Source: Candidatus Poseidoniaceae archaeon (GTDB taxonomy: Archaea; Thermoplasmatota; Poseidoniia; Poseidoniales; Poseidoniaceae). Taken from it: 64,000 bases of DNA. The translations under genes and the position numbers were made by a program. The stretch covers positions 73,184-137,183 of the forward strand of contig JASLKG010000004.1 of NCBI GenBank assembly GCA_030747695.1, given 5' to 3'. Under the pieces are notes generated by a model, which ran no database searches, was not told the origin of the DNA, and was given only the letters and a program-made list of their open reading frames with translations. This document shows, one piece after another, positions 33,904 through 54,540 of the stretch. How positions within the stretch are numbered: position 1 is the stretch's first letter; every line of letters begins with the position of its first letter.

Positions 33904-35934
33904 ATGGCAACTGATATTGATGCGATGAGAATACATGTATCAGATGGTATACCACTTGATTTGCCAGAACATCCCGGAATTTGTCAAGATGTAGATCATG
34001 CACCTGCACGCCGACAAGTATTATCTAATTCTGAAAAAAAAATGGCTTTACGTAATGCTCTCAGGTATTTCCCTAGTGAATTACATGAGCAACTTGCACC
34101 AGAATTTGCAGAAGAATTAGAAACATATGGTAGAATATGGATGATGCGTTACCGCCCATCAGAGTATAAAATCAGGGGCTATCCCATTGATTCCTACCCA
34201 TGCAAATCAACAAGTGCTGCTGCAATAATGTTGATGATTCATAACAATCTCGATGTGAATGTTGCCCAATTCCCTCACGAATTGATTACATATGGTGGGA
34301 ATGGAGCTGTATTCCAAAACTGGGCTCAATACAGACTTGTTATGAAATACTTGTGCGAAATGGAGGATGATCAAACATTAGTGATATACTCTGGACATCC
34401 CCTAGGTATTTTCCCTTCAAACGAAAATGCACCGAGAGTAGTTATTACAAATGGAATGGTTATACCTAATTATTCATCACAAGACGATTATGATAGGATG
34501 AATGCAATGGGAGTTAGTCAATATGGGCAAATGACTGCTGGATCATACATGTACATTGGACCACAAGGAATTGTTCATGGAACTACTATTACAATACTTA
34601 ACGCAGCCAGAATGCATGCTGGTGCTACTGACTCCCTTTCTGGAGTTAGTTTTGTTACATCTGGTTTAGGTGGTATGTCTGGAGCACAGGCAAAAGCGGC
34701 AGTAATTGCAGGAGCCTCGTGTATTGTAAGCGAAATCAATCCACATGCAGCAGAAAAGAGACACAGGCAAGGGTGGGTCAATGTAATTGCCAATTCTACT
34801 GATGAGGCTATCGATCTAATGCTTGATGCTGTAAACGCTGGTGAGGCTATTTCTATTGCACATGTAGGTAACATTGTAGATCTTCTCGAAAGGATAGTTG
34901 AGAGAAATGTAAATGTCGATTTACTTTCTGACCAAACAAGTTTACATAACCCATGGCAAGGAGGATACTATCCTGTCACATTATCCTTTGATGACAGTAT
35001 AGAAATGATGTCATCTAATCCAACGCAATTTAAATCAGAAGTTCAGAAATCATTACGGCGGCACGCAGAAGCAATAAACAAACTAACCGGAAGTGGTACA
35101 TATTTCTGGGATTATGGTAATGCATTCTTGCTAGAAGCTAGCCGTGCTGGTGCTGACGTAATGGATGATTCGGGTACTGGTTTTAGATATCCAAGTTATG
35201 TTGAAGATATAATGGGGCCAATGTGCTTTGATTACGGATTCGGCCCATTCAGATGGGTATGCACATCTGGGAAGCCTGAAGATTTAATTGAATCTGATTT
35301 AATTGCTGCAAAAATACTAACGCAAATGTCTGATAATTCTCCAGAGGAAATTAAACAACAGATGTTAGATAATCTTCGCTGGATTAAGGATGCAAACAAA
35401 AACAACCTAGTTGTTGGAACACAAGCAAGAATATTGTATGCCGATGCTGAAGGAAGAAAGCGTATTGCAAAAGCCTTCAACGATGCTATATCCGATGGAA
35501 GAATCTCAGCTCCTATTGTATTAGGGCGTGATCATCACGATGTTTCTGGTACTGATTCTCCCTACAGAGAAACTGCAAACATACAAGATGGGTCCATGTT
35601 TACTGCCGATATGTCAGTTCAAAATTTCGTTGGTGATTCCTTCAGGGGAGCGACGTGGGTAAGTTTGCATAATGGTGGAGGTGTTGGATGGGGTGAGGTC
35701 ATTAATGGTGGCTTTGGATTACTAATTGATGGAACCATGGATAGTGAAATTAAGTTGAAATCAATGCTTGATTGGGATGTTAATAATGGGATTACACGTA
35801 GAGCTTGGGCCCGTAATGATGGTGCATTATTTGCAATAAGAAGAGCGATGGATTCTAATCCTAAACTAAAAGTAACTCTACCTCATGTTTCAGAGGACAA
35901 ACTCATTGACTCGTTCTTTCACGGTGGTGTCTGA
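33904..35934 (+). CDS. hutU: Urocanate hydratase (long, 676-aa form)
   Basis: ITYGGNGAVFQNW, QYGQMTAGSYMYIGPQGIVHGT, GLGGMSGAQ and RDHHDVSGTDSPYRET motifs. Confidence 0.92.
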   Translation: MATDIDAMRIHVSDGIPLDLPEHPGICQDVDHAPARRQVLSNSEKKMALRNALRYFPSELHEQLAPEFAEELETYGRIWMMRYRPSEYKIRGYPIDSYPCKSTSAAAIMLMIHNNLDVNVAQFPHELITYGGNGAVFQNWAQYRLVMKYLCEMEDDQTLVIYSGHPLGIFPSNENAPRVVITNGMVIPNYSSQDDYDRMNAMGVSQYGQMTAGSYMYIGPQGIVHGTTITILNAARMHAGATDSLSGVSFVTSGLGGMSGAQAKAAVIAGASCIVSEINPHAAEKRHRQGWVNVIANSTDEAIDLMLDAVNAGEAISIAHVGNIVDLLERIVERNVNVDLLSDQTSLHNPWQGGYYPVTLSFDDSIEMMSSNPTQFKSEVQKSLRRHAEAINKLTGSGTYFWDYGNAFLLEASRAGADVMDDSGTGFRYPSYVEDIMGPMCFDYGFGPFRWVCTSGKPEDLIESDLIAAKILTQMSDNSPEEIKQQMLDNLRWIKDANKNNLVVGTQARILYADAEGRKRIAKAFNDAISDGRISAPIVLGRDHHDVSGTDSPYRETANIQDGSMFTADMSVQNFVGDSFRGATWVSLHNGGGVGWGEVINGGFGLLIDGTMDSEIKLKSMLDWDVNNGITRRAWARNDGALFAIRRAMDSNPKLKVTLPHVSEDKLIDSFFHGGV

Positions 35935-37472
35935 TGGTTGTCAAACTTGATGGCAATACCCTCACCGCAAATGAGGTTGACATGGTTGCCAATGGTGAGA
36001 AAGTAGAAATTGCTACAGATGCTTGGGAATGTGTCGATAATTCACGTAATGTTGTCGAAAGAATTTTAGAAAATAATCATACAGTTTACGGAATTAATAC
36101 AGGCTTTGGGGCTCTTGTCAATGAAAGAATTTCACTAGCTGATTTAGCACAATTACAAATTAATTTGATTCGATCACATGCTTGCGGTTTAGGCGAGCCA
36201 ATGTCAAAAAAGGATACAAGAGCAATGATGTGTGTAAGGGCGAACTCTTTGGCCAAGGGTAATTCCGGTATTCAGAGAAAGGTTTTGATTCAACTGATTG
36301 AATTCCTAAATGAGGATATTGTTCCTGTAGTTCCGAGAATTGGAAGCCTTGGTGCATCCGGTGATTTAGCACCTCTTTCGCATGTTGCATTATCTCTTAT
36401 TGGTGAAGGTGAAGTGTGGAATGGTGATGAAATAGTCGACACTTCTACAGCCTTAAAAAGCAAAGGTCTTATTCCTGTAGAACTTGGTGCTAAGGATGGA
36501 TTATCTCTGATTAATGGTACTGCACAGATGTGTGCATTTCTTGTAAATGCCGAACAACGGCTACAAAATCTGCTAGTCATGGCTGATTTAATAGCATGTA
36601 CAACCATTGAAGCAAGAGAATGTTCGATTAAGCCAATGGATCCACGTGTACAAAGGGCCAGACCACACCCAGGCCAGACAAAAATTGCTGAAAGGATAAG
36701 AGGTATAATGGAAAATTCTCCTATTGTGAAGATGCATCAAAATTGCGATCGTGTACAAGACGCCTACTCATTTAGATGTATACCACAAGTACACGGCGCA
36801 GTTTTACAACGTCTTGAAGAACTAATGAAAACACTCGACATCGAAATTAATAGTGCAACTGATAACCCTCTAATTTTCCCAGATTTAGCCAATCCTGGAG
36901 AACATGAAGTGATTAGTCAAGGTAATTTCCACGGAGAAGTTTTAGCTCTTGCAGCAGATTCAATGTCTCATGCAATATTCGAATTAGCACATATAAGTGA
37001 AAGGAGAATTGATCAAATGATTGATCCAAATAGGAGCAATTTGCCAGCATTCCTAGCAGCAAATTCGGGATTAGAATCTGGTATGATGATTGTGCACTAT
37101 TCAGCTGCGGCTGCACTAGCTGAAATGCATGGGCATGCAATGCCACATTCAGCCTTTTCAACTCCAACCTCGGCTGGTCAAGAAGACCATGTTTCAATGG
37201 GGGCAACTGCCTGCTGGAATCTTATTCTAGCTACAGATAGACTAGCAAATGTACTTGCCTGCGAATTACTTGTTGCATGTGAAGCATTAGAATATAGAAA
37301 AGAGGACCCTGCAAGTCATGTAATGGGTCTTTACAATCTTGTTCGTACTGTAAGCAAACCACTAAATGGTGACAGATCTACTTCAAGCGAGATACAAGTC
37401 TTGTCACAAGAAATATCACAAGGTGGATGGCTTGCTAGAATTGAAGCCGAACATGGAAGATTGATTAGATAA
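35934..37472 (+). CDS. hutH: Histidine ammonia-lyase
   Basis: GSLGASGDLAPLSH (the MIO-forming ASG triad) and YGINTGFG. Start overlaps the hutU stop by 1 nt. Confidence 0.93.
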   Translation: MVVKLDGNTLTANEVDMVANGEKVEIATDAWECVDNSRNVVERILENNHTVYGINTGFGALVNERISLADLAQLQINLIRSHACGLGEPMSKKDTRAMMCVRANSLAKGNSGIQRKVLIQLIEFLNEDIVPVVPRIGSLGASGDLAPLSHVALSLIGEGEVWNGDEIVDTSTALKSKGLIPVELGAKDGLSLINGTAQMCAFLVNAEQRLQNLLVMADLIACTTIEARECSIKPMDPRVQRARPHPGQTKIAERIRGIMENSPIVKMHQNCDRVQDAYSFRCIPQVHGAVLQRLEELMKTLDIEINSATDNPLIFPDLANPGEHEVISQGNFHGEVLALAADSMSHAIFELAHISERRIDQMIDPNRSNLPAFLAANSGLESGMMIVHYSAAAALAEMHGHAMPHSAFSTPTSAGQEDHVSMGATACWNLILATDRLANVLACELLVACEALEYRKEDPASHVMGLYNLVRTVSKPLNGDRSTSSEIQVLSQEISQGGWLARIEAEHGRLIR

Positions 37473-38325: not shown

Positions 38326-38423
38326 AATTCGACCTCAAGCCCCTCGGACAATGTGAGGCGTGTAACTTCAAGTCCATGAACCATTATATCTTGAAAGGGG
38401 GTGGGCGAGACGGAGTGACAGTA

Positions 38424-40025
<1,602 letters not shown>

Positions 40026-41285: not shown

Positions 41286-42527
41286 TTAATGATAAATCAA
41301 TTCACCTTCAATAATTGTTGCAGAAAATGGATTTATTCCTGGACGTAGACACCAAGACTCCCAATTTTCACTCTCCAAAATATTCAAGTTGGCAATCGAG
41401 CCCTCCTGGATCCTTCCATGAACTAAACCAGAAGGGTGTGGAGAAGTCTCTGCTGAATTTCTACTACAGGCTGCTAGAGAAGCCAATGGGTCAATGTCAT
41501 TGCGCTGAACTAATATTGATGCTAGAAACGGCAGACTCAAGGTTTGACAATTTGGATTAAAATCTGAGGCATATGACCATAGCCACTCATTATCTATACA
41601 TTCCTGAAACGGTGGGAATTCTTCACCCATAGAATATGGAGTACCTGGTAGAAATCCAGCATTAACTCCTGCATCGGACATTGCTTGTCTAGCATCGTTG
41701 TTAGTCCAATGTGCATGGTCCGCTGTTGTAACTTTGAGTTCTGCTGCTAATTCACCGCCACCACCATCTACAAACTCATCGATATGAATTCTTAGATCCA
41801 TCCCTCCTGATTTAGATGCTTTTAGAATATCTTCAGATTGTTCAACAGAAAACCAACCGGGTTCGCAAAACACATCAGCGCTTCGGGCGATTCCCTGTTC
41901 AATTATTTCTGGTAATTGCTCAGACAATATCTCTTCAGTATAGGTTTCTATGTTTTTTCCAGGTGGCGCGGCATGTGCTCCAAGCCATGTTAAATCAAGG
42001 GAAGGTAGTCCCTCCAAATGCCCTAATTTTGATGCTACTTCTAGCAATCTTAATTCTGTTTTTGTATCTAAACCATAGCCCGATTTTGCTTCTAAATGTG
42101 TTGTACCATTTCTTAGGGCTTCGCGTAATCGTTCAACTCCAAGATGCATTAACTTACTATTGTCAGTTTTGCGTGTTGTCATTACTGTAGAAGCTATCCC
42201 TCCTCCCTTTTCTGCAATATCTTTGTATGACATTCCTTGTTGTCTCCACCTTACTTCTCTAGATCTATCACCCGCCCAAAGTAAGTGCGTATGGGTATCA
42301 ACTAATCCTGGGATAATCGCTCTACCCTCTAGATCAATACTTTCGAGTTCATTGTACTCCTCACTTAATTCTCCACTTGGAGAAATTTTGGAGATTATGT
42401 GATTATCTATTAATATCCCATAACCTGGATCAATAACATGCTCATCGTCTAGCATTTTACTACCAATAAGAGGGCCATTTCCAGCAAGGTGGACTATCGG
42501 ACCTGCGTTGAGTAAAAGCCTCTGCAT
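41286..42527 (-). CDS. hutI: Imidazolonepropionase
   Basis: Amidohydrolase fold with the PGLVDTHTHL metal motif. Family-typical length, and hut genes lie nearby. Confidence 0.85.
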   Translation of the reverse strand: MQRLLLNAGPIVHLAGNGPLIGSKMLDDEHVIDPGYGILIDNHIISKISPSGELSEEYNELESIDLEGRAIIPGLVDTHTHLLWAGDRSREVRWRQQGMSYKDIAEKGGGIASTVMTTRKTDNSKLMHLGVERLREALRNGTTHLEAKSGYGLDTKTELRLLEVASKLGHLEGLPSLDLTWLGAHAAPPGKNIETYTEEILSEQLPEIIEQGIARSADVFCEPGWFSVEQSEDILKASKSGGMDLRIHIDEFVDGGGGELAAELKVTTADHAHWTNNDARQAMSDAGVNAGFLPGTPYSMGEEFPPFQECIDNEWLWSYASDFNPNCQTLSLPFLASILVQRNDIDPLASLAACSRNSAETSPHPSGLVHGRIQEGSIANLNILESENWESWCLRPGINPFSATIIEGELIYH

Positions 42528-46962: not shown

Positions 46963-47799
46963 ATGGATCAAATGTCTGATGCAATGTTAACAATTGAGGG
47001 CGTTGCAAAACATTTCGGAGAGGTTAGTGCACTTTCTAGCATCGATCTCGAGATTTCTAGTGGCCAAGTCATTGGTCTGGTTGGAGGCAATGGTGCTGGT
47101 AAAACTACGCTGTTACGCCTTATGGCAGGAGTTATGGAGCCATCTAGTGGTGATGTTTTGTTTAGGGGTAAACCTGTTAGTTCAATGCGAGCAAAACTAG
47201 GTGTTGTTCCTGAATCTACAGGGCTATATTCACGTCTAACCGCATGGGAAAATATTCGCTACCACTCCCGAATGTTTGGTATTGACGATACAGTGGCATG
47301 GAATCGTACATCACATTTCGCAAAACGTTTGGACTTGAGTGATTCTTTATCGCGCCATACAAAGGGTTTCAGTCGAGGTATGCGCCAAAAAACAGCCCTA
47401 TTACGGGCCTTAGCACATGGACCTGATATTCTACTTCTTGATGAGCCAACAGCGGGTCTTGATGTTACCAGTGCTCGTACAGTGCGAACGTTAGTTAGAC
47501 AGTTACGTGACGAGGGTGGTACAGTAATCTATTCAACACACCATCTAGCTGAGGCACAGCAGGTATGTGACCGCATCATTATAGTTCACAATGGTACAAT
47601 TCGTGCAGATGGTTCACCAAATGATTTGTTAGAACTGACTGAATGTTCAAATCTTGAGGATGCATATGTCGCCCTAACATCAGACAAAGCACGTGCGAGG
47701 ACAGAAGAGCCTCGTAGTGAAAGCAAATTGGCACGTTGGTGGAAGGTTTTCCTTACAGGACGAACTCCAGATACTGTGGGTGGTGATGATGATGAGTGA
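46963..47799 (+). CDS. ABC transporter ATP-binding protein (ABC-2/NatA-like exporter)
   Basis: GGNGAGKTT Walker A, the FSRGMRQK signature region, and LLLDEPTAGLD Walker B. Confidence 0.9.
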   Translation: MDQMSDAMLTIEGVAKHFGEVSALSSIDLEISSGQVIGLVGGNGAGKTTLLRLMAGVMEPSSGDVLFRGKPVSSMRAKLGVVPESTGLYSRLTAWENIRYHSRMFGIDDTVAWNRTSHFAKRLDLSDSLSRHTKGFSRGMRQKTALLRALAHGPDILLLDEPTAGLDVTSARTVRTLVRQLRDEGGTVIYSTHHLAEAQQVCDRIIIVHNGTIRADGSPNDLLELTECSNLEDAYVALTSDKARARTEEPRSESKLARWWKVFLTGRTPDTVGGDDDE

Positions 47800-49009
47800 A
47801 TCATGGAGATACATTCGCGTAATCTCAGCTAAAGAAATAATTGAATTTATTCGAGATTGGCGTACACTTGTGGCGGTTATTGTCATACCTCTCCTAATTT
47901 TCCCCGCTCTATTTATTGCCTTACCAATGTTAATGCAATCAGAAGCGGCTGAACTCGATGCCCTAACTCTTGAGGTAGTCTGGCAGGGAGATGTGGAGGA
48001 TGATTTACATCTAAAATATCAAGATTTGAAATTGAATTTAACATTTGAAGAACTATCTGATGACGCAGAAAATTTGTCCGATCCAGGAAGTGACTTAGAT
48101 CGACTAAGAAATCAGGAATATGATGCAATATTCAGACTTCGTAATTCAAGTGGCACATGGGAGTTCTCGATATTACATCTTTCAACATCTGAATATTCAG
48201 CAGAAGCAAAAGCGAGAATGTTAGGTGCGCTATACGACTGGGAAATGGAAGTAATCAATGGGACACTCACAGAAGCTGGACTCGAACCAAATGAGACTCT
48301 AAATCCTGTAAAGTGGGATGGTAATCCAGAATATGCAGATGCAGCTACTAAGGGGGAACAAGCAGGTTTGGCATTGTCACTATTCATTCCGATGGTAATT
48401 GCTATTTGGACTGCCACCAGCGCAATTCAACCATCGATTGACATGACCGCAGGTGAAAGAGAAAGGGGGACTCTCGAAGCGCTACTTTGTCTCCCCTGCA
48501 GCCGGGTACAATTGTTAGCAGGTAAATGGCTAGCAGTAGCAACGATCACTAGTGTCGGTGTTGGATTACAACTTGCAGGATTAATGTTTGCAATAACATA
48601 CCTTGCATCTTCATCCATCATAGGCGTCCCAAGTATATCATGGTCCTCTGTAATGTTACTCGGTATTGCCATTCTAATTTTTGCAATAATGGTTGTTGCG
48701 TTTGAACTTGCAATAGCCATGAAATCACATAGTGTCAAAGAAGCAGGGTCACTTCTGGGCCCTGCAATAATTTTCATAATGTTCCCTGCAATATTCACTC
48801 AATTCATTAACCTAGATGGAATTGAGGCGTTCTGGTTTTCAGTGCCACTTGTGAATATATTACTAGCAATGAGGGAATTGCTGCTAGATAGAGTCATTTT
48901 AGAACATATAGTTGTGTGGCTGGTTTCTAGTTTGTTATATGCTGGAATCGCAGCATGGTATGCAGCAAGGCAATTCAAGCGAGAGGACCTCGTAGCATCT
49001 CTTTCCTGA
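47786..49009 (+). CDS. ABC-2 type permease (NatB-like) with a large extracytoplasmic loop
   Basis: N-terminal TM, a loop of about 150 aa, five C-terminal TMs, and an ERERGTLEALL motif. The start overlaps the ATPase stop. Confidence 0.8.
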   Translation: MMMSESWRYIRVISAKEIIEFIRDWRTLVAVIVIPLLIFPALFIALPMLMQSEAAELDALTLEVVWQGDVEDDLHLKYQDLKLNLTFEELSDDAENLSDPGSDLDRLRNQEYDAIFRLRNSSGTWEFSILHLSTSEYSAEAKARMLGALYDWEMEVINGTLTEAGLEPNETLNPVKWDGNPEYADAATKGEQAGLALSLFIPMVIAIWTATSAIQPSIDMTAGERERGTLEALLCLPCSRVQLLAGKWLAVATITSVGVGLQLAGLMFAITYLASSSIIGVPSISWSSVMLLGIAILIFAIMVVAFELAIAMKSHSVKEAGSLLGPAIIFIMFPAIFTQFINLDGIEAFWFSVPLVNILLAMRELLLDRVILEHIVVWLVSSLLYAGIAAWYAARQFKREDLVASLS

Positions 49010-49123: not shown

Positions 49124-49300
49124 ATGCCTAAGGTAAGTTTAGACATGCCAGCACAAATTCTGGCAGACTTGAAATTGCATGTTGGTGACGATGGGAAATT
49201 CGTCAGTGTCGCTGATGCTATACGCACCGCATGTCGAAAATTGCTTGATCAGTTGGATGAAATTGATTCAAGGCATGGTCGAATGGAGGAGATGAAATGA
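49124..49300 (+). CDS. 58-aa ribbon-helix-helix (CopG/Arc-like) protein (below the ORF-track cutoff)
   Basis: Hand translation gives MPKVSLDMPAQILADLKLHVGDDGKFVSVADAIRTACRKLLDQLDEIDSRHGRMEEMK, with a beta-strand/helix/helix pattern. Its stop overlaps the folE ATG (ATGA), and GGAGGAG lies inside its 3' end. Confidence 0.65.
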   Translation: MPKVSLDMPAQILADLKLHVGDDGKFVSVADAIRTACRKLLDQLDEIDSRHGRMEEMK

Positions 49301-49872
49301 CCTCCAAAGAGGAAGCAATGCAGGCAGTTAGCACGCTGCTAAATTATATCGAAGGAGGAAATGATAGAGAAGGCCTCATAGATACTCCTAGAAGAGTGAT
49401 TGAATCATTCGAAGAAATATTTGCAGGATATGAGATGACCTCGTCTGAAGTCCTTTCTTCTACTTTCAATGGTGAAGGATATAATGGAATTGTTCTTCTG
49501 CGCGATATTGAGTTTCATTCCACCTGTGAACACCATCTTCAGCCTTTCAAAGGAAGAGCACATGTTGCATATATTCCAACTGAAAGAATTGTAGGAATTA
49601 GTAAACTTGCGCGAATTGTTGAACTACATGCTCGCAGATTACAAAACCAAGAAAGAATCACAAAAGGTGTTGCCGACGACCTAGAAGAGCACTTACATCC
49701 ACTTGGGTCAGCAGTAATTATCGAAGCTGCTCACGGATGCATGCAGTGCCGAGGAGTCTCCAAACAAAATGCAATTATGACTACTAGTGCAATGCGTGGA
49801 GTGTTTTTTGATAAAAGTGAAGCACGAAGCGAATTACTGCAATTGATCCAAAATCCTCCATTGTCAAGATAA
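49297..49872 (+). CDS. folE: GTP cyclohydrolase I (FolE type)
   Basis: FHSTCEHHLQPF, ISKLARIV and RLQNQERIT motifs. Confidence 0.92.
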   Translation: MTSKEEAMQAVSTLLNYIEGGNDREGLIDTPRRVIESFEEIFAGYEMTSSEVLSSTFNGEGYNGIVLLRDIEFHSTCEHHLQPFKGRAHVAYIPTERIVGISKLARIVELHARRLQNQERITKGVADDLEEHLHPLGSAVIIEAAHGCMQCRGVSKQNAIMTTSAMRGVFFDKSEARSELLQLIQNPPLSR

Positions 49873-49880
49873 GTGATAAC

Positions 49881-50477
49881 ATGGCCTCATATCCAATTGT
49901 GGAAATTTTCCATTCCGTCCAGGGTGAAGCATTTCACGCTGGCATTCCCCATGTTTTCATTAGATTCGGGAATTGTAATCTCAGATGTGAATGGTGTGAT
50001 ACTGATTTCTTGACATTTCAAGAAATGGAACTGGATGAAATTGTTAATCAGGTTCTCTCATATGATTGTAAAAGGGTTATTTTCACTGGAGGAGAGCCTT
50101 GTTTACATGATTTGGACACGATTGGAAACGAACTAAAGAAGCATGGAATCAATCTCTCAATCGAGACCAATGGAACAATACCTGTCCCCGATATTATTGA
50201 TTGGATTTGTGTATCTCCTAAGGACCAACTTTACCCCAATGTTTCAATCAAACAAAGGAAGGGCGATGAATTGAAAGTCGTATATTGTGGGCAAGATTTG
50301 TCGATGTATGATGAATTGAAGAATGGTTTTACACATCAATTTATACAACCATGTTACATAGAAAGTGACTCTATTGAGGAAAATGGGCGGCATTTTGCTA
50401 AAGTTGAATCGCTTGTTAAATCAAACCCGGGATGGAGATTATCCCTCCAAACGCACAAGTGGATGGGGGTAAATTAA
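49881..50477 (+). CDS. queE: 7-carboxy-7-deazaguanine synthase QueE (radical SAM)
   Basis: EIFHSVQGEAFHAG, CNLRCEWCDT and TGGEP motifs. Confidence 0.9.
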   Translation: MASYPIVEIFHSVQGEAFHAGIPHVFIRFGNCNLRCEWCDTDFLTFQEMELDEIVNQVLSYDCKRVIFTGGEPCLHDLDTIGNELKKHGINLSIETNGTIPVPDIIDWICVSPKDQLYPNVSIKQRKGDELKVVYCGQDLSMYDELKNGFTHQFIQPCYIESDSIEENGRHFAKVESLVKSNPGWRLSLQTHKWMGVN

Positions 50478-51565
50478 TGCAGGCAGTGATGGCTTTTAGT
50501 GGGGGAATGGATTCTACCAGTTTACTACTGCGACTACTCGCTGATGGCTATGAGGTGAGTTGCCTATCATATGAATATGGTCAAAAACACAACGTTGAAT
50601 TAGAAAGAGCAAAGGCCAATATTTCTTATCTAAAATTAAACGGAATAGAAGTTGAACACAAAATTGCTGATTTATCTTCTGCCATGAGTATTTTTCATTC
50701 TGCACTTACTGATGAAAATATTGAAATTCCTGAAGGTCACTATGAAGCTGAACAAATGAAATCAACAGTTGTACCAAATCGCAATGCAATTTTTTCTTCG
50801 ATTCTTTATGGATATGGGCTATCTGTGGCTCTTAAGAGTGGTGAGAATGTAATAATAGCATTAGGAGTTCACTCTGGTGATCACGCAATTTATCCTGATT
50901 GCCGACCTGAATTCTATGAGTCTATTGGAAAATCATTTGCACTTGGAAATTGGGAGAGTGAATCAGTATCATTCCATCTACCATATATCGATGGCAGTAA
51001 GGAAACAATATTACGCGATGCTCTAGATGCTTGTGAGATTTTAAAATTAGACTTTGATACTGTTTTTTCAAACACTAATACATCATATAATCCTGACAAA
51101 GAAGGAAGATCTAGTGGAACAAGCGGTGCTGATATTGAGAGAATTCTTGCTTTCCATGCAATCGGCAGGGCAGATCCCGTTGAATATGTAACCACGTGGG
51201 ATGATGTTTTAGAAGGGGCATTAAAGGCAGAACTAAGGCACCATGTCATGAAAGAAAGTGGAACAGAACGTGCTTTCACTGGAGAATATGACAAACATTT
51301 TGAAGTTGGTACATACTATTGTTATGATTGTGGAAAACCACTATTTGATTCCACGTCTAAGTTTGATTCAGGTTGTGGTTGGCCTGCTTTTAATTCGGAA
51401 TTAGTAGATGCAAATATTGCAAAATCAACAGATAATAGCCATGGAATGAGTCGAATAGAGTTGCGATGTTCGCAATGCGATTCACATTTGGGACATTTGT
51501 TCCAGGAAAATAGAGGACTTAGATATTGTATAAATTCAGTATGTTTAGATTTTAAGGAGAATTAA
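50477..51565 (+). CDS. queC: QueC-like PP-loop ATPase (7-cyano-7-deazaguanine synthase) fused to a C-terminal MsrB (SelR) domain
   Basis: The N-terminal part has AFSGGMDST, VPNRNAIF and HSGDHAIYPDCRPEF. The C-terminal 130 aa have GTYYCYDCGKPLF, GCGWPAF, RCSQCDSHLGHLF and RYCINS. The reading frame is single and uninterrupted, with a TAATG junction to queE. Confidence 0.85.
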   Translation: MQAVMAFSGGMDSTSLLLRLLADGYEVSCLSYEYGQKHNVELERAKANISYLKLNGIEVEHKIADLSSAMSIFHSALTDENIEIPEGHYEAEQMKSTVVPNRNAIFSSILYGYGLSVALKSGENVIIALGVHSGDHAIYPDCRPEFYESIGKSFALGNWESESVSFHLPYIDGSKETILRDALDACEILKLDFDTVFSNTNTSYNPDKEGRSSGTSGADIERILAFHAIGRADPVEYVTTWDDVLEGALKAELRHHVMKESGTERAFTGEYDKHFEVGTYYCYDCGKPLFDSTSKFDSGCGWPAFNSELVDANIAKSTDNSHGMSRIELRCSQCDSHLGHLFQENRGLRYCINSVCLDFKEN

Positions 51566-51567
51566 TT

Positions 51568-52017
51568 ATGACAACAAGTATACGAAGATATGTTGAAACT
51601 GATACCGGGCATAGAGTTCCAAATCATAAATCAAAATGTAGCCACATGCATGGGCATAGGTACCGATTTGAAGCTGAAATAGAAGGAGATGTTGTTGATT
51701 TTGAGGGTGCTTCAGAAGAAGGAATGATAATTGATTTTTCAGATGTTTCTACAATACTCAAGGAACATATTCATGATATTATTGATCATGCATTTGTGAT
51801 ATACGAGCGTGATGATTTACTCGTCAATCTGTTTAAGCAACTGCCAGAGAATCACCGTATTGTAATTGTTCCATTCATACCAACTGCAGAAAATCTTGCT
51901 AAATGGGCTTTCGAGCAGGTCAAACCGCACCTAAAAACTACTTATGGAAATAACTTGAAACTAGTAGCAATGCACGTTAGAGAGACGCCTAAGAGTTGGG
52001 CTTGTTGGAAGGAATGA
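51568..52017 (+). CDS. queD: 6-carboxytetrahydropterin synthase QueD (PTPS family)
   Basis: The CSHMHGHRY zinc/His motif, and the DHAF motif. Confidence 0.88.
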   Translation: MTTSIRRYVETDTGHRVPNHKSKCSHMHGHRYRFEAEIEGDVVDFEGASEEGMIIDFSDVSTILKEHIHDIIDHAFVIYERDDLLVNLFKQLPENHRIVIVPFIPTAENLAKWAFEQVKPHLKTTYGNNLKLVAMHVRETPKSWACWKE

Positions 52018-52813
52018 CACGTTTTCTTCTATCTTTATGCCACATTTCATCACCGCTTAACTTCTGCAACGCTGTTGTTGCTTGAATTAAAGCCCCAATT
52101 AAGCGCTCTGCTTCTGTATCCATTGGTAGTCCACGCATTATTACACGGTCAATAACATCAGAAAATAGATCTGATTTCTCAGTATCAAGTGATTGAGCAA
52201 ATTCATTTATTGATTGCTTCAATATTTTGCGTAGTTCTGGTGCTAATGTTCGATTTTTTTCGACACCCAATACTCTTTTTCCAAAAATTACTCTATCTCT
52301 ATGCAATTCATAAACACAATGACCGACTGCCTGTGACAAATTTGTAATTGGATATCCTTCCCAAGTTGGTAATGTCAAGAGTAGGTCACATTTTTCTAGA
52401 TCTTCAGTAGACAGACCTTTACCTTCTTCTCCAAAAATTAAGGAAATATTACCTTCGAAAGTTCGAGCTTTTTCAGCAAATTCCCAAGGTAGAATGAAAT
52501 GACGGAACAAAATTTTGCTACCAACTTCGCGCTTGCCACTTGTTCCAACTACCATTGAAGATTCTGAAACTGCTTCTTCAAGTGTTTGAACGATTCTTGC
52601 TGAGTCGAGAATTATTCCAGCATGCTTTGCTCTATTTCTGGCAATCTCATCATCAACCGAACATTGTGGATTTACTAGAATTAGTCTATCATATCCATGA
52701 TTTAGCATTGCCCTACAAATCGCTCCTAAATTCCCAGGATGATTGATGCCGACCAATACGATATCTAAATTATAACTAGAAGATGGTAGGGAGACATCAA
52801 GCCTATCTCCCAT
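51989..52813 (-). CDS. SpoU/TrmH-family RNA 2'-O-methyltransferase (TrmJ-like)
   Basis: VGINHPGNLGAICRAMLNHG, IFGEEGKGL and PITNLSQAV motifs. ATG at 52813 shares 1 nt with the upstream stop (TAATG). Confidence 0.8.
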   Translation of the reverse strand: MGDRLDVSLPSSSYNLDIVLVGINHPGNLGAICRAMLNHGYDRLILVNPQCSVDDEIARNRAKHAGIILDSARIVQTLEEAVSESSMVVGTSGKREVGSKILFRHFILPWEFAEKARTFEGNISLIFGEEGKGLSTEDLEKCDLLLTLPTWEGYPITNLSQAVGHCVYELHRDRVIFGKRVLGVEKNRTLAPELRKILKQSINEFAQSLDTEKSDLFSDVIDRVIMRGLPMDTEAERLIGALIQATTALQKLSGDEMWHKDRRKRVIPSNKPNS

Positions 52814-53016
52814 TACATTACCTCCGTTATCCATCTTGGATCGCAAGGCGCATATAGGAAAAATACTGCTTCCTCTTCATTTTCTCTATCTGGCATTATT
52901 AGCGAGTGCTTACGCATGTTGTACTTAGTCCTCAAATGTTGAATGAGTTTCTCTAATTCAAGCTTTGAACCATGAACACTTACTGGTGTACGCTCCCAGG
53001 CGACACGTATCGCCAT
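52813..53016 (-). CDS. Conserved-looking 67-aa hypothetical protein between rps17e and the trmJ-like gene
   Basis: Compact same-strand placement, with a TAATG junction to the downstream gene. No family recognised. Confidence 0.45.
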   Translation of the reverse strand: MAIRVAWERTPVSVHGSKLELEKLIQHLRTKYNMRKHSLIMPDRENEEEAVFFLYAPCDPRWITEVM

Positions 53017-53500: not shown

Positions 53501-53656
53501 TCACCTCTGTAATTTACTGCGTCTCCAATGATGGCGCTTAGGATGTGAAACAGTGTTTCGACTTGTTTTCATCATTACCCAAACTGGAACACGACGATTC
53601 TGTTTTCCAACTTTTAACAAGCGAATCTTCTTTGCTGCAGGTTTATTTCTTGCCAT
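53501..53656 (-). CDS. rpl39e: Ribosomal protein eL39 (51 aa, below the ORF-track cutoff)
   Basis: Hand translation gives [51 protein letters not shown]. Confidence 0.92.
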
Positions 53657-53665
53657 ATTAACACC

Positions 53666-54025
53666 TCAAATTCTTCGAATATTTGTTTCGCGGCGGTTTT
53701 CTTGTAAACCTGATAAAATTCTCTTTAATTGCATATCACCAACTGGGGTTGCAATTCGATTATCACCTGATAATTTTGCTAAATGTGATTTTACTCTAGT
53801 CGCTAATTCATTGTTTACCATATTCAAATTTGCTAACCTAGAGCGTGCTTCTGGAGTCAATATCAACTTCATCGCATTGTCTAATGCTGCTATTGCTTGT
53901 GCTTCGGCTTGTGCTTCTATTTCTGCATCAGCTTGTGCTGCAACCTGTTCTTCCATTTGTGACTGGAGTTGGGCCATACGTTGTGCACGTATGTTGGCCA
54001 ATTCATCATCACCAGAAATAGACAT
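53666..54025 (-). CDS. PDCD5/TFAR19-like double-stranded DNA-binding protein (PF01984)
   Basis: ELANIRAQRMAQLQ ... ILTPEARSRLANL ... conserved position between rps19e and rpl39e. GAGGGTG precedes the ATG at 54025. Confidence 0.8.
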   Translation of the reverse strand: MSISGDDELANIRAQRMAQLQSQMEEQVAAQADAEIEAQAEAQAIAALDNAMKLILTPEARSRLANLNMVNNELATRVKSHLAKLSGDNRIATPVGDMQLKRILSGLQENRRETNIRRI

Positions 54026-54048
54026 TACAGACACCCTCTCACTTCCAA

Positions 54049-54540
54049 TTAATACTTTGATAAACCTGGATATTTTTCTTCAGCAGCGCCACGAACAGAG
54101 TGTGCTACTTCATCCAATAACTTCTGTCCTGCAGCAGTTATAGAACGTCCAGCATACAATTTTTGATCGCCATCGACTGACTGCACTGTTTTGGTTTCCT
54201 TCATTTGCAGCAAACCAGCTTCTGTTAATTGTTGCAATGCAGTACGAATAATGTGGCGGCTTCCCATTACAGGTGTATAGGGGTTAGAACCATTGTCCTT
54301 CTTCCCACCATAGAGTTGTGCTAGTGCACTTACACCTATTGGACCCTTACGCGCAACTTTACGTAGAATTGCTGCGCAACGAATTTCCCACCAATTATCT
54401 TGGGTTGGTGGTTTTTCACGGTGAACGCCTGTCTTGACAAAATCCGCCCAATCGGGTCTAGATATCTCATCAACATTAGCAAGCATATCTGCTAGGGCAG
54501 GGTTCAGCAAGTCTGCGGGAACATCATATGACGTCGTCAT
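54049..54540 (-). CDS. rps19e: Ribosomal protein eS19
   Basis: SYDVPADLL, PDWADFVKTGVHREKPP, NWWEIRCAAILRKV and YGG motifs. Confidence 0.9.
   Translation of the reverse strand: MTTSYDVPADLLNPALADMLANVDEISRPDWADFVKTGVHREKPPTQDNWWEIRCAAILRKVARKGPIGVSALAQLYGGKKDNGSNPYTPVMGSRHIIRTALQQLTEAGLLQMKETKTVQSVDGDQKLYAGRSITAAGQKLLDEVAHSVRGAAEEKYPGLSKY

What the first reader, a model, noticed from the sequence alone, without database searches (positions are those of the whole stretch)
50477..51565. QueC lacking its zinc-binding cysteines and fused in frame to an intact MsrB domain
Within the folE-queE-queC-queD operon the QueC gene continues, with no stop, into a complete methionine-R-sulfoxide reductase B domain. 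That domain has both CxxC zinc pairs (CYDC, CSQC), GCGWPAF, HLGHLF and the catalytic RYCINS.

Canonical QueC ends in a Cys-rich zinc site of the form SCY ... CGxCxxCxxR. Here the corresponding stretch reads TSY ... SSGTSGADIER, so all four cysteines appear to be replaced.

Two readings are possible. The fused, zinc-containing MsrB domain may substitute structurally for the lost QueC zinc knuckle. Alternatively, it may link 7-deazaguanine (archaeosine precursor) synthesis to redox state or oxidative-damage repair. I do not know of a described QueC-MsrB fusion.
Basis: partly seen in the sequence, partly recalled or inferred. Interest (0 to 1): 0.65.

Follow-up and report, generated by a model that had tools for sequence, protein, structure and literature searches.

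The report
Zinc-site-free QueC fused to MsrB
A marine archaeon (Marine Group II) really does encode one protein that joins the preQ0-making enzyme QueC, lacking its usual four zinc-binding cysteines, to an intact methionine sulfoxide reductase B; but the cysteine loss is an older trait shared with unfused archaeal, planctomycete and phage QueC, so the join is best read as two neighbouring operon genes that lost the stop between them.

Summary
ORF 50477-51565 (+) encodes 362 aa: QueC (Pfam 4e-42) followed by MsrB/SelR (4e-42). It lies in a tight folE-queE-queC::msrB-queD operon. All four QueC zinc ligands are replaced one-for-one (S203, S213, S216, D219). Every other QueC signature residue and every MsrB catalytic and zinc residue is kept.

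It is not an artefact. Two independent metagenome runs give identical contigs across the junction, and 240 listed database clusters carry both domains.

The same cysteine-less QueC stands alone in Poseidoniales with a separate or absent msrB, in marine Pirellulaceae, and in most of the viral contigs examined. One such virus is a cultured Flavobacterium phage whose DNA is fully substituted with a preQ0-derived base.

In Poseidoniales, every msrB examined lies between queC and queD, usually overlapping the queC stop by a few bases, and fusion removes that stop. Both domains are under strong purifying selection (dN/dS 0.02-0.06).

Best reading: an independent bifunctional fusion built on a zinc-ligand-free QueC variant. 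I found no paper describing either feature. Interest is moderate.

The parts
49297..49872 (+). folE, GTP cyclohydrolase I; first gene of the preQ0 operon
   Evidence: Pfam PF01227, E 1.9e-65
49881..50477 (+). queE, a radical-SAM CDG synthase; its stop codon overlaps the queC start as TAATG
   Evidence: Pfam PF04055, E 1e-12; sequence; conserved position in relatives
50477..51565 (+). queC::msrB fusion gene, 362 aa
   Evidence: Identical contigs in two independent runs.
50477..51190 (+). QueC domain (aa 1-238). It keeps SGGMDS (aa 8-13), YGQKHNVE (34-41), VPNRN (99-103) and YPDC (139-142).
   Evidence: Pfam 4e-42. The signature residues are invariant in all groups. The motifs are defined in PMC13329287. 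Foldseek matches 3bl5/2pg3 with TMt 0.66-0.73.
51083..51142 (+). Former zinc knuckle (aa 203-222): S203-Y204...S213-G-T-S216-G-A-D219-I-E-R. The four Cys ligands are replaced by Ser, Ser, Ser and Asp.
   Evidence: Alignment A1. Ligand table. D219 and Y204 are invariant in 104 fused homologs.
51197..51250 (+). Junction helix (aa 241-258). The QueC C-terminal helix runs directly into the MsrB N-terminal helix. This linker is about 14 residues shorter than in the ~380-aa fusions.
   Evidence: AF2 secondary structure gives H241-258, with block pLDDT 91 and 82. Alignment A1.
51236..51556 (+). MsrB domain (aa 254-360). Zn ligands are C282/C285 and C331/C334, the resolving Cys is C300 (GCGWP), the histidines are H337/H340, and the catalytic Cys is C351 (RYCINS, nt 51521-51538).
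   Evidence: Pfam 4e-42; TIGR00357 scores 140 against a cut-off of 113. PDB phmmer E 2e-32 to human MsrB3. Foldseek TMt 0.72-0.78. These residues are invariant in A2.
51500..51520 (+). Shortened loop before the catalytic Cys: F-Q-E-N-R-G-L in place of the canonical F-x-D-G-P-x-x-Y-G-G-E. This is a 4-residue deletion plus an Asp-to-Glu change, shared by the 362-aa clade.
   Evidence: Column counts in A2. Gap in the alignment to MsrB3.
51568..52017 (+). queD, the 6-carboxy-tetrahydropterin synthase (PTPS family); last gene of the operon
   Evidence: Pfam PF01242, E 1.3e-27
51989..52846 (-). Convergent SpoU-family RNA methyltransferase gene that overlaps the queD 3' end by 29 nt. It is a conserved neighbour, not part of the operon.
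   Evidence: Pfam PF00588, E 4.5e-23. Synteny.

Best explanation
The gene encodes a bifunctional polypeptide with two independently acting enzymes.

- The N-terminal domain is a preQ0 synthase (CDG + ATP + NH3 -> ADG -> preQ0). It belongs to a large, mostly marine QueC lineage in which a Ser/Thr/Asp set has replaced the four-cysteine zinc knuckle. That lineage includes phages, Marine Group II archaea and Pirellulaceae.
- The C-terminal domain is an ordinary zinc-containing two-cysteine MsrB that reduces methionine-R-sulfoxide and is presumably recycled by thioredoxin.

In Poseidoniales, every msrB examined sits between queC and queD and is translationally coupled to queC: the start overlaps, or lies within a few bases of, the queC stop. 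The fusion arose when that stop was lost, and in the window's clade the linker was later trimmed to one continuous helix. The consequence is obligatory 1:1 co-expression, not substrate channelling.

Shown here:
- the domain content and the residue replacements;
- the distribution of fused, adjacent and absent states;
- the independence of the cysteine loss from the fusion;
- purifying selection on both domains.

Inferred, not measured:
- both catalytic activities;
- that the preQ0 feeds tRNA archaeosine;
- that the two domains are not functionally coupled.
For: - Domains and motifs.
- Four operon states among the Poseidoniales species representatives: 16 short fusions, 12 long (~380 aa) fusions, 9 with a separate msrB (ATGA or TGATG-type overlaps, or a single in-frame stop in L022), and 6 without msrB.
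- Five of five sampled stand-alone Poseidoniales MsrB genes lie at folE-queE-queC-msrB-queD. In four of them the called queC gene overlaps msrB by 4 nt. In the fifth (L167) no queC gene was called.
- The cysteine-less QueC is found in all 41 MGII sequences whatever the fusion state, in all 13 Planctomycetota sequences, and in 65 of 68 distinct viral sequences. None of the 80 viral loci contains an MsrB.
- All QueC catalytic signature residues defined by mutagenesis in PMC13329287 (Y35, R99, Y131 and Y189 equivalents) are invariant.
- Phage immuto_2-6A encodes a cysteine-less QueC, and its dG is completely replaced by the preQ0-derived fdPreQ1 (PMC10516641).
- dN/dS is 0.02-0.06 for both domains in the unsaturated pairs.
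- The AF2 model has pLDDT 85.8 and pTM 0.80, and both folds are recovered.
Against: - No activity was measured for either domain.
- QueC is reported to need zinc (PMC13329287). TIGR00364 scores 132.7, below its 150.3 cut-off.
- The phage evidence is indirect, because the host QueC could contribute.
- msrB keeps its place inside a tRNA-modification operon across an entire order. The junction helix is rigid, pTM is 0.80, and the clade has a remodelled MsrB active-site loop. This is more integration than a purely accidental fusion needs.
- I could not check whole genomes for a second msrB, msrA or queC, or for arcTGT.
Confidence: 0.65

Rival explanations
1. Dedicated coupling. The tethered MsrB works on the pathway itself. 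It might repair oxidised conserved methionines of QueC (M11 in the SGGMDS P-loop, M94 next to VPNRN) or of partner enzymes in sunlit oxic water, or it might gate preQ0 synthesis by redox state.
For: - msrB lies inside the preQ0 operon in every sampled context across both MGII families.
- M5, M11 and M94 are invariant in 104 fusions.
- A continuous junction helix and pTM 0.80 suggest a fixed domain arrangement.
- The tightest fusions carry a 4-residue deletion and an Asp-to-Glu change beside the catalytic Cys, which could mean an altered substrate.
Against: - Fused, separate and absent states are intermixed among close relatives, so fusion is dispensable.
- The MsrB keeps all generic catalytic features.
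- There is no MsrA partner for the S-epimer in the operon or the window.
- The cysteine-less QueC of phages and planctomycetes has no MsrB nearby.
Confidence: 0.2
2. Changed chemistry. Loss of the zinc site marks a QueC paralogue that no longer makes preQ0. It might stop at the amide ADG, like the proposed QueC* of some phages, or act on another substrate.
For: - The zinc motif is described as a hallmark and zinc as required (PMC13329287).
- TIGR00364 scores below its cut-off.
- QueC* ADG synthases are proposed in phages (PMC10516641).
Against: - All the other signature residues are invariant, including the essential Tyr next to the first ligand position.
- It is the only queC in a complete folE-queE-queC-queD operon.
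- Phage immuto, which has a cysteine-less QueC, carries a preQ1-derived base, and that base requires nitrile formation.
Confidence: 0.07
3. Structural compensation. The zinc-bound MsrB domain packs against QueC and replaces the stabilising role of the lost zinc knuckle.
For: The two features co-occur in this protein, and the AF2 model gives a confident overall arrangement.
Against: - The cysteine-less QueC is stand-alone in 15 Poseidoniales representatives, in 13 planctomycete sequences, in 65 of 68 distinct viral sequences and in a cultured phage.
- The knuckle sequence keeps its length and its Gly, Tyr, Glu and Arg framework.
- Unfused forms already carry the C-terminal helix.
Confidence: 0.03
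4. Artefact or pseudogene. A misassembly or sequencing error joined two genes.
For: None was found. Some MAGs show local defects: an internal stop in L007, and no queC gene call in L167.
Against: - Contigs are identical in two independent runs.
- 240 listed protein clusters from many assemblies carry both domains.
- Both halves are under purifying selection.
Confidence: 0.01

Closest known systems
Canonical QueC / 7-cyano-7-deazaguanine synthase (B. subtilis 3BL5, E. coli; PF06508 'Cluster 1' of PMC13329287)
   Same: - The same fold (Foldseek TMt 0.66-0.73).
- The SGGxDS, YxQxHxxE, VPxRN and YPDC motifs, and the essential Tyr after the first ligand.
- The same operon partners: folE, queD and queE.
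   Different: - The C(x)8CxxCxxC zinc motif is replaced by S(x)9SxxSxxD.
- There is a ~20-residue extra C-terminal helix.
- It scores below the TIGR00364 cut-off.
- It is fused to MsrB.
Phage QueC of 7-deazaguanine DNA-modification clusters, e.g. [quoted passage not shown]
   Same: - The same long-type QueC lineage (43-66% identity).
- The same loss of all four cysteines, with one Asp kept among the four positions (SDSS or SSSD).
   Different: - The phage genes serve DNA modification with DpdA.
- They have no MsrB nearby.
- The largest viral group places the Asp at ligand position 2 rather than position 4.
Stand-alone zinc-containing two-Cys MsrB (E. coli MsrB 6SYM, human MsrB3 6QA0)
   Same: - 43-50% identity and TMt 0.72-0.78.
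- Two CxxC zinc pairs, the resolving Cys in GCGWP, HLGHxF, and the catalytic RYCINS.
   Different: - It is N-terminally welded to QueC.
- The window's clade lacks 4 residues of the FxDGPxxxGG loop and has Glu in place of the conserved Asp.
Known MsrB fusions (MsrA-MsrB, PilB Trx-MsrA-MsrB; 3E0M, 5FA9, 7E43)
   Same: MsrB acts as a module in a multidomain protein. Such fusions arise from neighbouring genes.
   Different: In those fusions the partners share a pathway (sulfoxide repair). Here the partner is an unrelated nucleobase-biosynthesis enzyme.
Gat-QueC (glutamine amidotransferase-QueC fusion, an archaeosine synthase)
   Same: A QueC-family domain fused to a second catalytic domain within deazaguanine metabolism (PMC10516641).
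   Different: In Gat-QueC the partner supplies ammonia to the same reaction. MsrB has no evident chemical link to the QueC reaction.

Membership tests
Canonical QueC (preQ0 synthase) | SGGxDS pyrophosphatase P-loop | tested here: met
   SGGMDS at aa 8-13; invariant in all groups
Canonical QueC (preQ0 synthase) | YxQxHxxE, VPxRN and YPDC motifs, the conserved Lys, and the essential Tyr following the first zinc ligand (PMC13329287) | tested here: met
   Y34/Q36/H38/E41, V99-N103, Y139-C142, K175 and Y204 are all invariant in the MGII, planctomycete and viral groups
Canonical QueC (preQ0 synthase) | C(x)8CxxCxxC zinc-binding motif | tested here: not met
   S203, S213, S216 and D219 occupy the four ligand columns. 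The protein is therefore filed as a zinc-ligand-free variant, not as a canonical member.
Canonical QueC (preQ0 synthase) | Profile score above the curated cut-off | tested here: inconclusive
   Pfam PF06508 scores 144.5 against a cut-off of 22 (met). The TIGR00364 equivalog scores 132.7 against 150.3 (not met).
Canonical QueC (preQ0 synthase) | Genomic association with folE, queD and queE | tested here: met
   Tight operon in the window and in about 45 Poseidoniales loci
Canonical QueC (preQ0 synthase) | ATP-dependent conversion of CDG to preQ0 | not testable with these tools
   Support is indirect only: phage immuto has a cysteine-less QueC and fully fdPreQ1-substituted DNA.
MsrB (SelR, PF01641 / TIGR00357) | Catalytic Cys in RYC(I/V)NS and the His pair in HLGHxF | tested here: met
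   C351, R349, N353, H337 and H340 are invariant in 104 homologs
MsrB (SelR, PF01641 / TIGR00357) | Resolving Cys and substrate Trp in GCGWP | tested here: met
   C300 and W302 are invariant
MsrB (SelR, PF01641 / TIGR00357) | Two CxxC pairs binding structural zinc (zinc-containing subclass) | tested here: met
   C282/C285 and C331/C334 are invariant
MsrB (SelR, PF01641 / TIGR00357) | Score above the curated cut-offs, and the MsrB fold | tested here: met
   TIGR00357 scores 140 against 113.05. Pfam scores 143.3 against 24.9. Foldseek TMt is 0.72-0.78 with rmsd about 2 A.
MsrB (SelR, PF01641 / TIGR00357) | Conserved FxDGP loop with the active-site Asp. That this Asp is an active-site residue is recalled from the PilB MsrB structure, not tested here. 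| tested here: inconclusive
   The window's clade has FxEx----xGxRYC: Asp is changed to Glu and 4 residues are deleted. The long fusions and the stand-alone forms keep FxDGP.
QueC-like defence proteins (QatC, Cap9) | Remodelled active site, defence-operon partners (QatABD, CD-NTase), and a variant zinc motif | tested here: not met
   The canonical QueC active-site motifs are retained. The neighbours are folE, queE, queD and ribosomal protein genes. Cap9 is only a weak hit (E 0.0025).

The most novel reading that the evidence does not exclude
A large, mostly marine lineage of genuine preQ0 synthases works without the four-cysteine zinc site that is currently treated as a QueC hallmark and as required for function. 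In its place is a conserved cluster of three hydroxyl residues plus one Asp (SSSD, SHTD or SDSS; an Asp is always present). This cluster either binds a hard cation such as Mg2+ or Ca2+, or needs no metal at all. That would be an adaptation to zinc-poor, oxidising surface seawater, spread among phages, Marine Group II archaea and Pirellulaceae. In MGIIb-like archaea the enzyme has in addition been rigidly welded to an MsrB whose active-site loop is remodelled, possibly for a dedicated substrate.
Probability: 0.3. Interest if true: 0.65.

Novelty: new variant of a known kind. Interest (0 to 1): 0.45.

Why it matters
QueC is the last step to preQ0, the shared precursor of queuosine, archaeosine and the 7-deazaguanine DNA modifications of phages. 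The most recent family survey (PMC13329287, 2026) lists the C(x)8CxxCxxC zinc motif as a hallmark and zinc as required.

A whole clade of apparently functional QueC lacks every zinc ligand. It includes the QueC of one of the most abundant archaeal groups in the surface ocean and of many marine phages. If these enzymes are active, the zinc site is structural and replaceable. Motif-based annotation of QueC would then need relaxing, and marine microbes may have shed a zinc requirement or an oxidation-sensitive thiolate site.

The MsrB fusion matters in two ways:
- It causes systematic mis-annotation. NCBI names these proteins MsrB and JGI names them QueC, each for one half only.
- It is a clean natural series (absent, adjacent, long fusion, short fusion) for studying how operon neighbours fuse.

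Taken alone, the fusion does not indicate a new mechanism.

Tried and rejected
- **Assembly or frameshift artefact.** Rejected.
- **Exact-product look-up of the window protein.** Nothing is on record. I used P0058 instead.
- **RNA evidence.** No RNA run could be listed for the gene, so transcription of the fusion was not shown.
- **Phylogeny.** I built an NJ tree with 100 bootstraps to test for a single cysteine loss and to count fusion events. The long-type QueC clade gets 100% support, but the cysteine-less subclade gets only 37% and the fusion states are unresolved. I therefore make no claim about how many fusions or fissions occurred.
- **Other genes in the window.** I looked for a second MsrA/MsrB by motif and ran Pfam on 20 large ORFs. 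Neither found a second MsrA/MsrB or arcTGT, but 64 kb is not a genome.
- **QueC-like defence protein (Cap9/QatC).** Rejected on active-site motifs and on context.
- **Viral origin of the locus.** Rejected. The operon lies in conserved chromosomal synteny next to SpoU and the S17e/L31e/L39e/S19e genes.
- **Planctomycete hits as mis-binned contigs.** The L042 neighbours are ordinary bacterial genes (RlmKL-like, ComM-like, WYL, MFS) on a 221-kb contig. L008, labelled Phycisphaerae, does look mis-binned.
- **Model coordinates.** They were not available, so I could not measure the geometry of the S/S/S/D cluster or the interdomain interface.
- **dN/dS.** Most pairs were saturated at synonymous sites. 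Only L001/L002 and L006/L050 were usable.
Full report
**1. What is in the sequence**

The + strand holds an uninterrupted ORF from the ATG at 50477 to the TAA at 51563-51565.

- Pfam places QueC (PF06508) on residues 2-228 (E 4e-42) and SelR/MsrB (PF01641) on residues 254-360 (E 4e-42).
- NCBIfam's MsrB domain model TIGR00357 scores above its cut-off (140 vs 113). The QueC equivalog TIGR00364 falls just below its own (132.7 vs 150.3).
- The genes on either side are folE (49297-49872), queE (49881-50477, its stop overlapping the queC start as TAATG) and queD (51568-52017). This is a tightly packed preQ0 operon.
- A longer 377-aa reading from an ATG at 50432 exists, and many database entries use it. 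The 50477 start fits QueC profile position 1 and the coupling signal better.
- The rest of the window is an archaeal chromosome: SRP54, ProRS, primase small subunit, MetRS, PAN ATPase, Kae1, S19e and L31e. The closest relatives are Poseidoniales (Marine Group II) MAGs.

**2. The zinc ligands are gone; everything else in QueC is kept**

Alignment to the nearest cysteine-containing QueC sequences and to gammaproteobacterial QueC puts the four ligand columns at S203, S213, S216 and D219.

- The window reads T-S-Y-N-P-D-K-E-G-R-S-S-G-T-S-G-A-D-I-E-R.
- L052 reads T-C-Y-K-P-N-S-Q-G-Q-S-C-G-R-C-G-S-C-N-E-R.
- The spacing, the two glycines, the Tyr after ligand 1 and the E-R are all conserved.

A 2026 family study (PMC13329287) defines the canonical signature as SGGxDS, YxQxHxxE, VPxRN, YPDC, the C(x)8CxxCxxC zinc motif and an essential Tyr inside the zinc region. 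It states that zinc is required. Here every one of those features except the cysteines is present, and they are invariant across all groups examined.

**3. The MsrB half is complete**

- Both CxxC zinc pairs (C282/C285, C331/C334), the resolving Cys and Trp of GCGWP (C300, W302), HLGHxF (H337, H340) and RYCINS (R349, C351, N353) are invariant in 104 fused homologs of 54-80% identity.
- The best solved relatives are human MsrB3 and bacterial MsrB (E about 1e-32 to 1e-29).
- An AF2 model built on those 104 sequences has mean pLDDT 85.8 and pTM 0.80. It shows one continuous helix (aa 241-258) across the junction.
- Foldseek recovers MsrB (TMt 0.72-0.78) and QueC 3BL5/2PG3 (TMt 0.66-0.73).
- One derived feature stands out. 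The 362-aa clade, including the window, has lost four residues of the FxDGPxxYGGERYC loop and carries Glu where the conserved Asp sits. The ~380-aa fusions and the stand-alone genes keep the canonical loop.

**4. It is not an artefact, and it is not rare**

- Logan contigs of 2841 nt from two seawater metagenome runs of different studies and years cover 50393-51800 without a single difference. Two further runs give shorter identical pieces that reach or cross the junction.
- All 120 best hits of the window protein carry both Pfam domains, and so do all 120 best hits of a divergent fused relative.
- Source names are inconsistent. NCBI calls these proteins peptide-methionine (R)-S-oxide reductase, and JGI calls them 7-cyano-7-deazaguanine synthase.
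- For the two pairs with unsaturated synonymous divergence, dN/dS is 0.02-0.06 in both the QueC and the MsrB parts.

**5. How the fusion arose**

Among GTDB species representatives the operon occurs in four states:

| State | Number of loci | Loci |
|---|---|---|
| queC-queD with no msrB | 6 | L023-25, L027, L030, L031 |
| queC and msrB as separate genes | 9 | L022, L029, L033, L034, L036, L038, L041, L053, L058 |
| Fusion of ~380 aa with a long linker | 12 | L014-21, L026, L035, L048, L056 |
| Fusion of 362-368 aa with a linker about 14 residues shorter | 16, plus the window | L001-13, L028, L032, L050 |

In the separate-gene state, the msrB start overlaps the queC stop (ATGA or TGATG type) or lies a few bases after it. 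In L022 a single in-frame stop separates the two genes.

I sampled five stand-alone Poseidoniales MsrB proteins from independent assemblies. All lie at folE-queE-queC-msrB-queD. In four of them the called queC gene overlaps msrB by 4 nt, and in the fifth (L167) no queC gene was called. So msrB is a long-standing member of this operon, and fusion needs only the loss of one stop.

An NJ tree could not resolve how many times fusion happened.

**6. The cysteine loss is independent of MsrB**

- All 41 Poseidoniales QueC sequences examined lack the four cysteines, whatever their fusion state.
- So do 13 marine Pirellulaceae/Planctomycetota QueC sequences (mostly S-H-T-D). These stand alone among ordinary bacterial genes.
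- So do 65 of the 68 distinct QueC sequences from the 80 IMG/VR viral contigs (S-S-S-D, S-S-T-D, S-N-T-D, or the large S-D-S-S group). These lie in phage-like folE/queD/queE clusters with no MsrB.
- Every cysteine-less sequence keeps at least one Asp among the four positions.
- Cysteine-containing members of the same long-type lineage (L052, L059, L094, L095, L108 and several representatives) branch at its base. The lineage as a whole has 100% bootstrap support. The cysteine-less subset has only 37%.
[quoted passage not shown] Its QueC reads TSY...SDYKSASSVER. [quoted passage not shown] This is indirect but strong evidence that a cysteine-less QueC makes preQ0, with the caveat that the host enzyme might contribute.

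**7. Interpretation**

The best-supported reading (confidence 0.65) is a bifunctional fusion of two independently acting enzymes, produced by stop-codon loss between coupled neighbours, on the background of an older zinc-ligand-free QueC variant.

- The redox-link idea remains open (0.2). The order-wide placement of msrB inside a tRNA-modification operon, the rigid junction and the remodelled MsrB loop in the tightest fusions are suggestive. But the free interchange of fused, separate and absent states argues that physical linkage is dispensable.
- A change of QueC chemistry (0.07) is made unlikely by the invariant catalytic residues, the operon context and the phage example.

That the preQ0 feeds archaeosine in tRNA follows from established archaeal biology. 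It was not tested, and no arcTGT was seen in the ORFs I scanned.

**8. Novelty**

I found no paper that mentions a QueC-MsrB/SelR fusion or a cysteine-less canonical QueC. Only the held library was searched, so this is not proof of absence.

The proteins themselves are abundant in public databases. I rate this a new variant of a known kind. The fusion alone is a modest curiosity. The zinc-free QueC lineage is the more consequential observation.

Noticed in passing
L083-L162 (IMG/VR viral contigs); L163/L169 (Flavobacterium phage immuto): Most marine viral QueC homologs lack all four zinc cysteines. Eleven distinct sequences (L083-L093) read TSY..S[SN]G.[ST]G.D.ER. A much larger group (54 distinct sequences) reads TSYKP..SDYKSASSVER, with the Asp moved to ligand position 2. 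Only three distinct sequences (from L094, L095 and L108/L109) keep CCCC.
   Followed up: yes
P0123, P0124, P0139, P0142 (insertion at GDH|C...N|SIYPDC); P0145 (insertion inside CGRCGS|C...HN|CTER): Close QueC relatives in metagenomes carry inteins, some with LAGLIDADG domains. The inteins are inserted in the conserved GDHAIYPDC active-site motif or exactly at the fourth zinc-ligand cysteine. P0134 has an N-terminal HNH endonuclease domain. Both features are typical of phage genes.
   Followed up: partly
window 51500-51520 (aa 342-348): The 362-aa fusion clade has a 4-residue deletion and an Asp-to-Glu change in the MsrB loop just before the catalytic RYCINS. L028/L032 (368 aa, short linker) keep the canonical loop, so the linker shortening and the loop deletion are separate events.
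   Followed up: partly
window 51989-52846 (-): A SpoU-family RNA methyltransferase gene converges on queD and overlaps its 3' end by 29 nt. It is followed by the S17e, L31e, a PDCD5-like dsDNA-binding protein and S19e genes. This synteny with the preQ0 operon is conserved across Poseidoniales.
   Followed up: partly
window 46963-49009 (+): An ABC transporter ATPase (Walker A GGNGAGKTT) and a permease lie between the methylmalonyl-CoA mutase/glyoxalase genes and folE. In relatives (L081, L164-L166) only two small ORFs occupy that position, so this looks like a lineage-specific insertion upstream of the operon.
   Followed up: no
L007 (about codon 91 of queC); L167 3225-4001: One MAG has an in-frame stop early in the fused gene. 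Another has no queC gene call in the 775-nt gap between queE and msrB. These are possible pseudogenes or sequencing errors in individual MAGs.
   Followed up: no
L008 (NZFX01000056.1, labelled Phycisphaerae bacterium): This contig carries the complete archaeal folE-queE-queC::msrB-queD-SpoU arrangement at 76-88% identity to the window, with many ambiguous bases. It is almost certainly a mis-binned Poseidoniales contig.
   Followed up: no
window 33904-37472 (+) and 41286-42527 (-): Histidine-utilisation genes are present: urocanase, histidine ammonia-lyase and an amidohydrolase (imidazolonepropionase-like). They are conserved near the operon in L081/L082.
   Followed up: no
window 38376-40025 (+): A 549-aa protein has several EF-hand calcium-binding motifs and a membrane-protease-like transmembrane region. 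This is unusual for an archaeon.
   Followed up: no
window 53553-54143 (+): A 196-aa ORF lies antisense to the PDCD5-like gene (53666-54034, -). It has an Ala/Cys/Ser-rich low-complexity stretch and is probably not a gene.
   Followed up: no
window 50432 vs 50477: Gene callers split between a 377-aa product, which overlaps queE by 46 nt, and the 362-aa product. Database entries of both lengths exist for the same gene family.
   Followed up: partly
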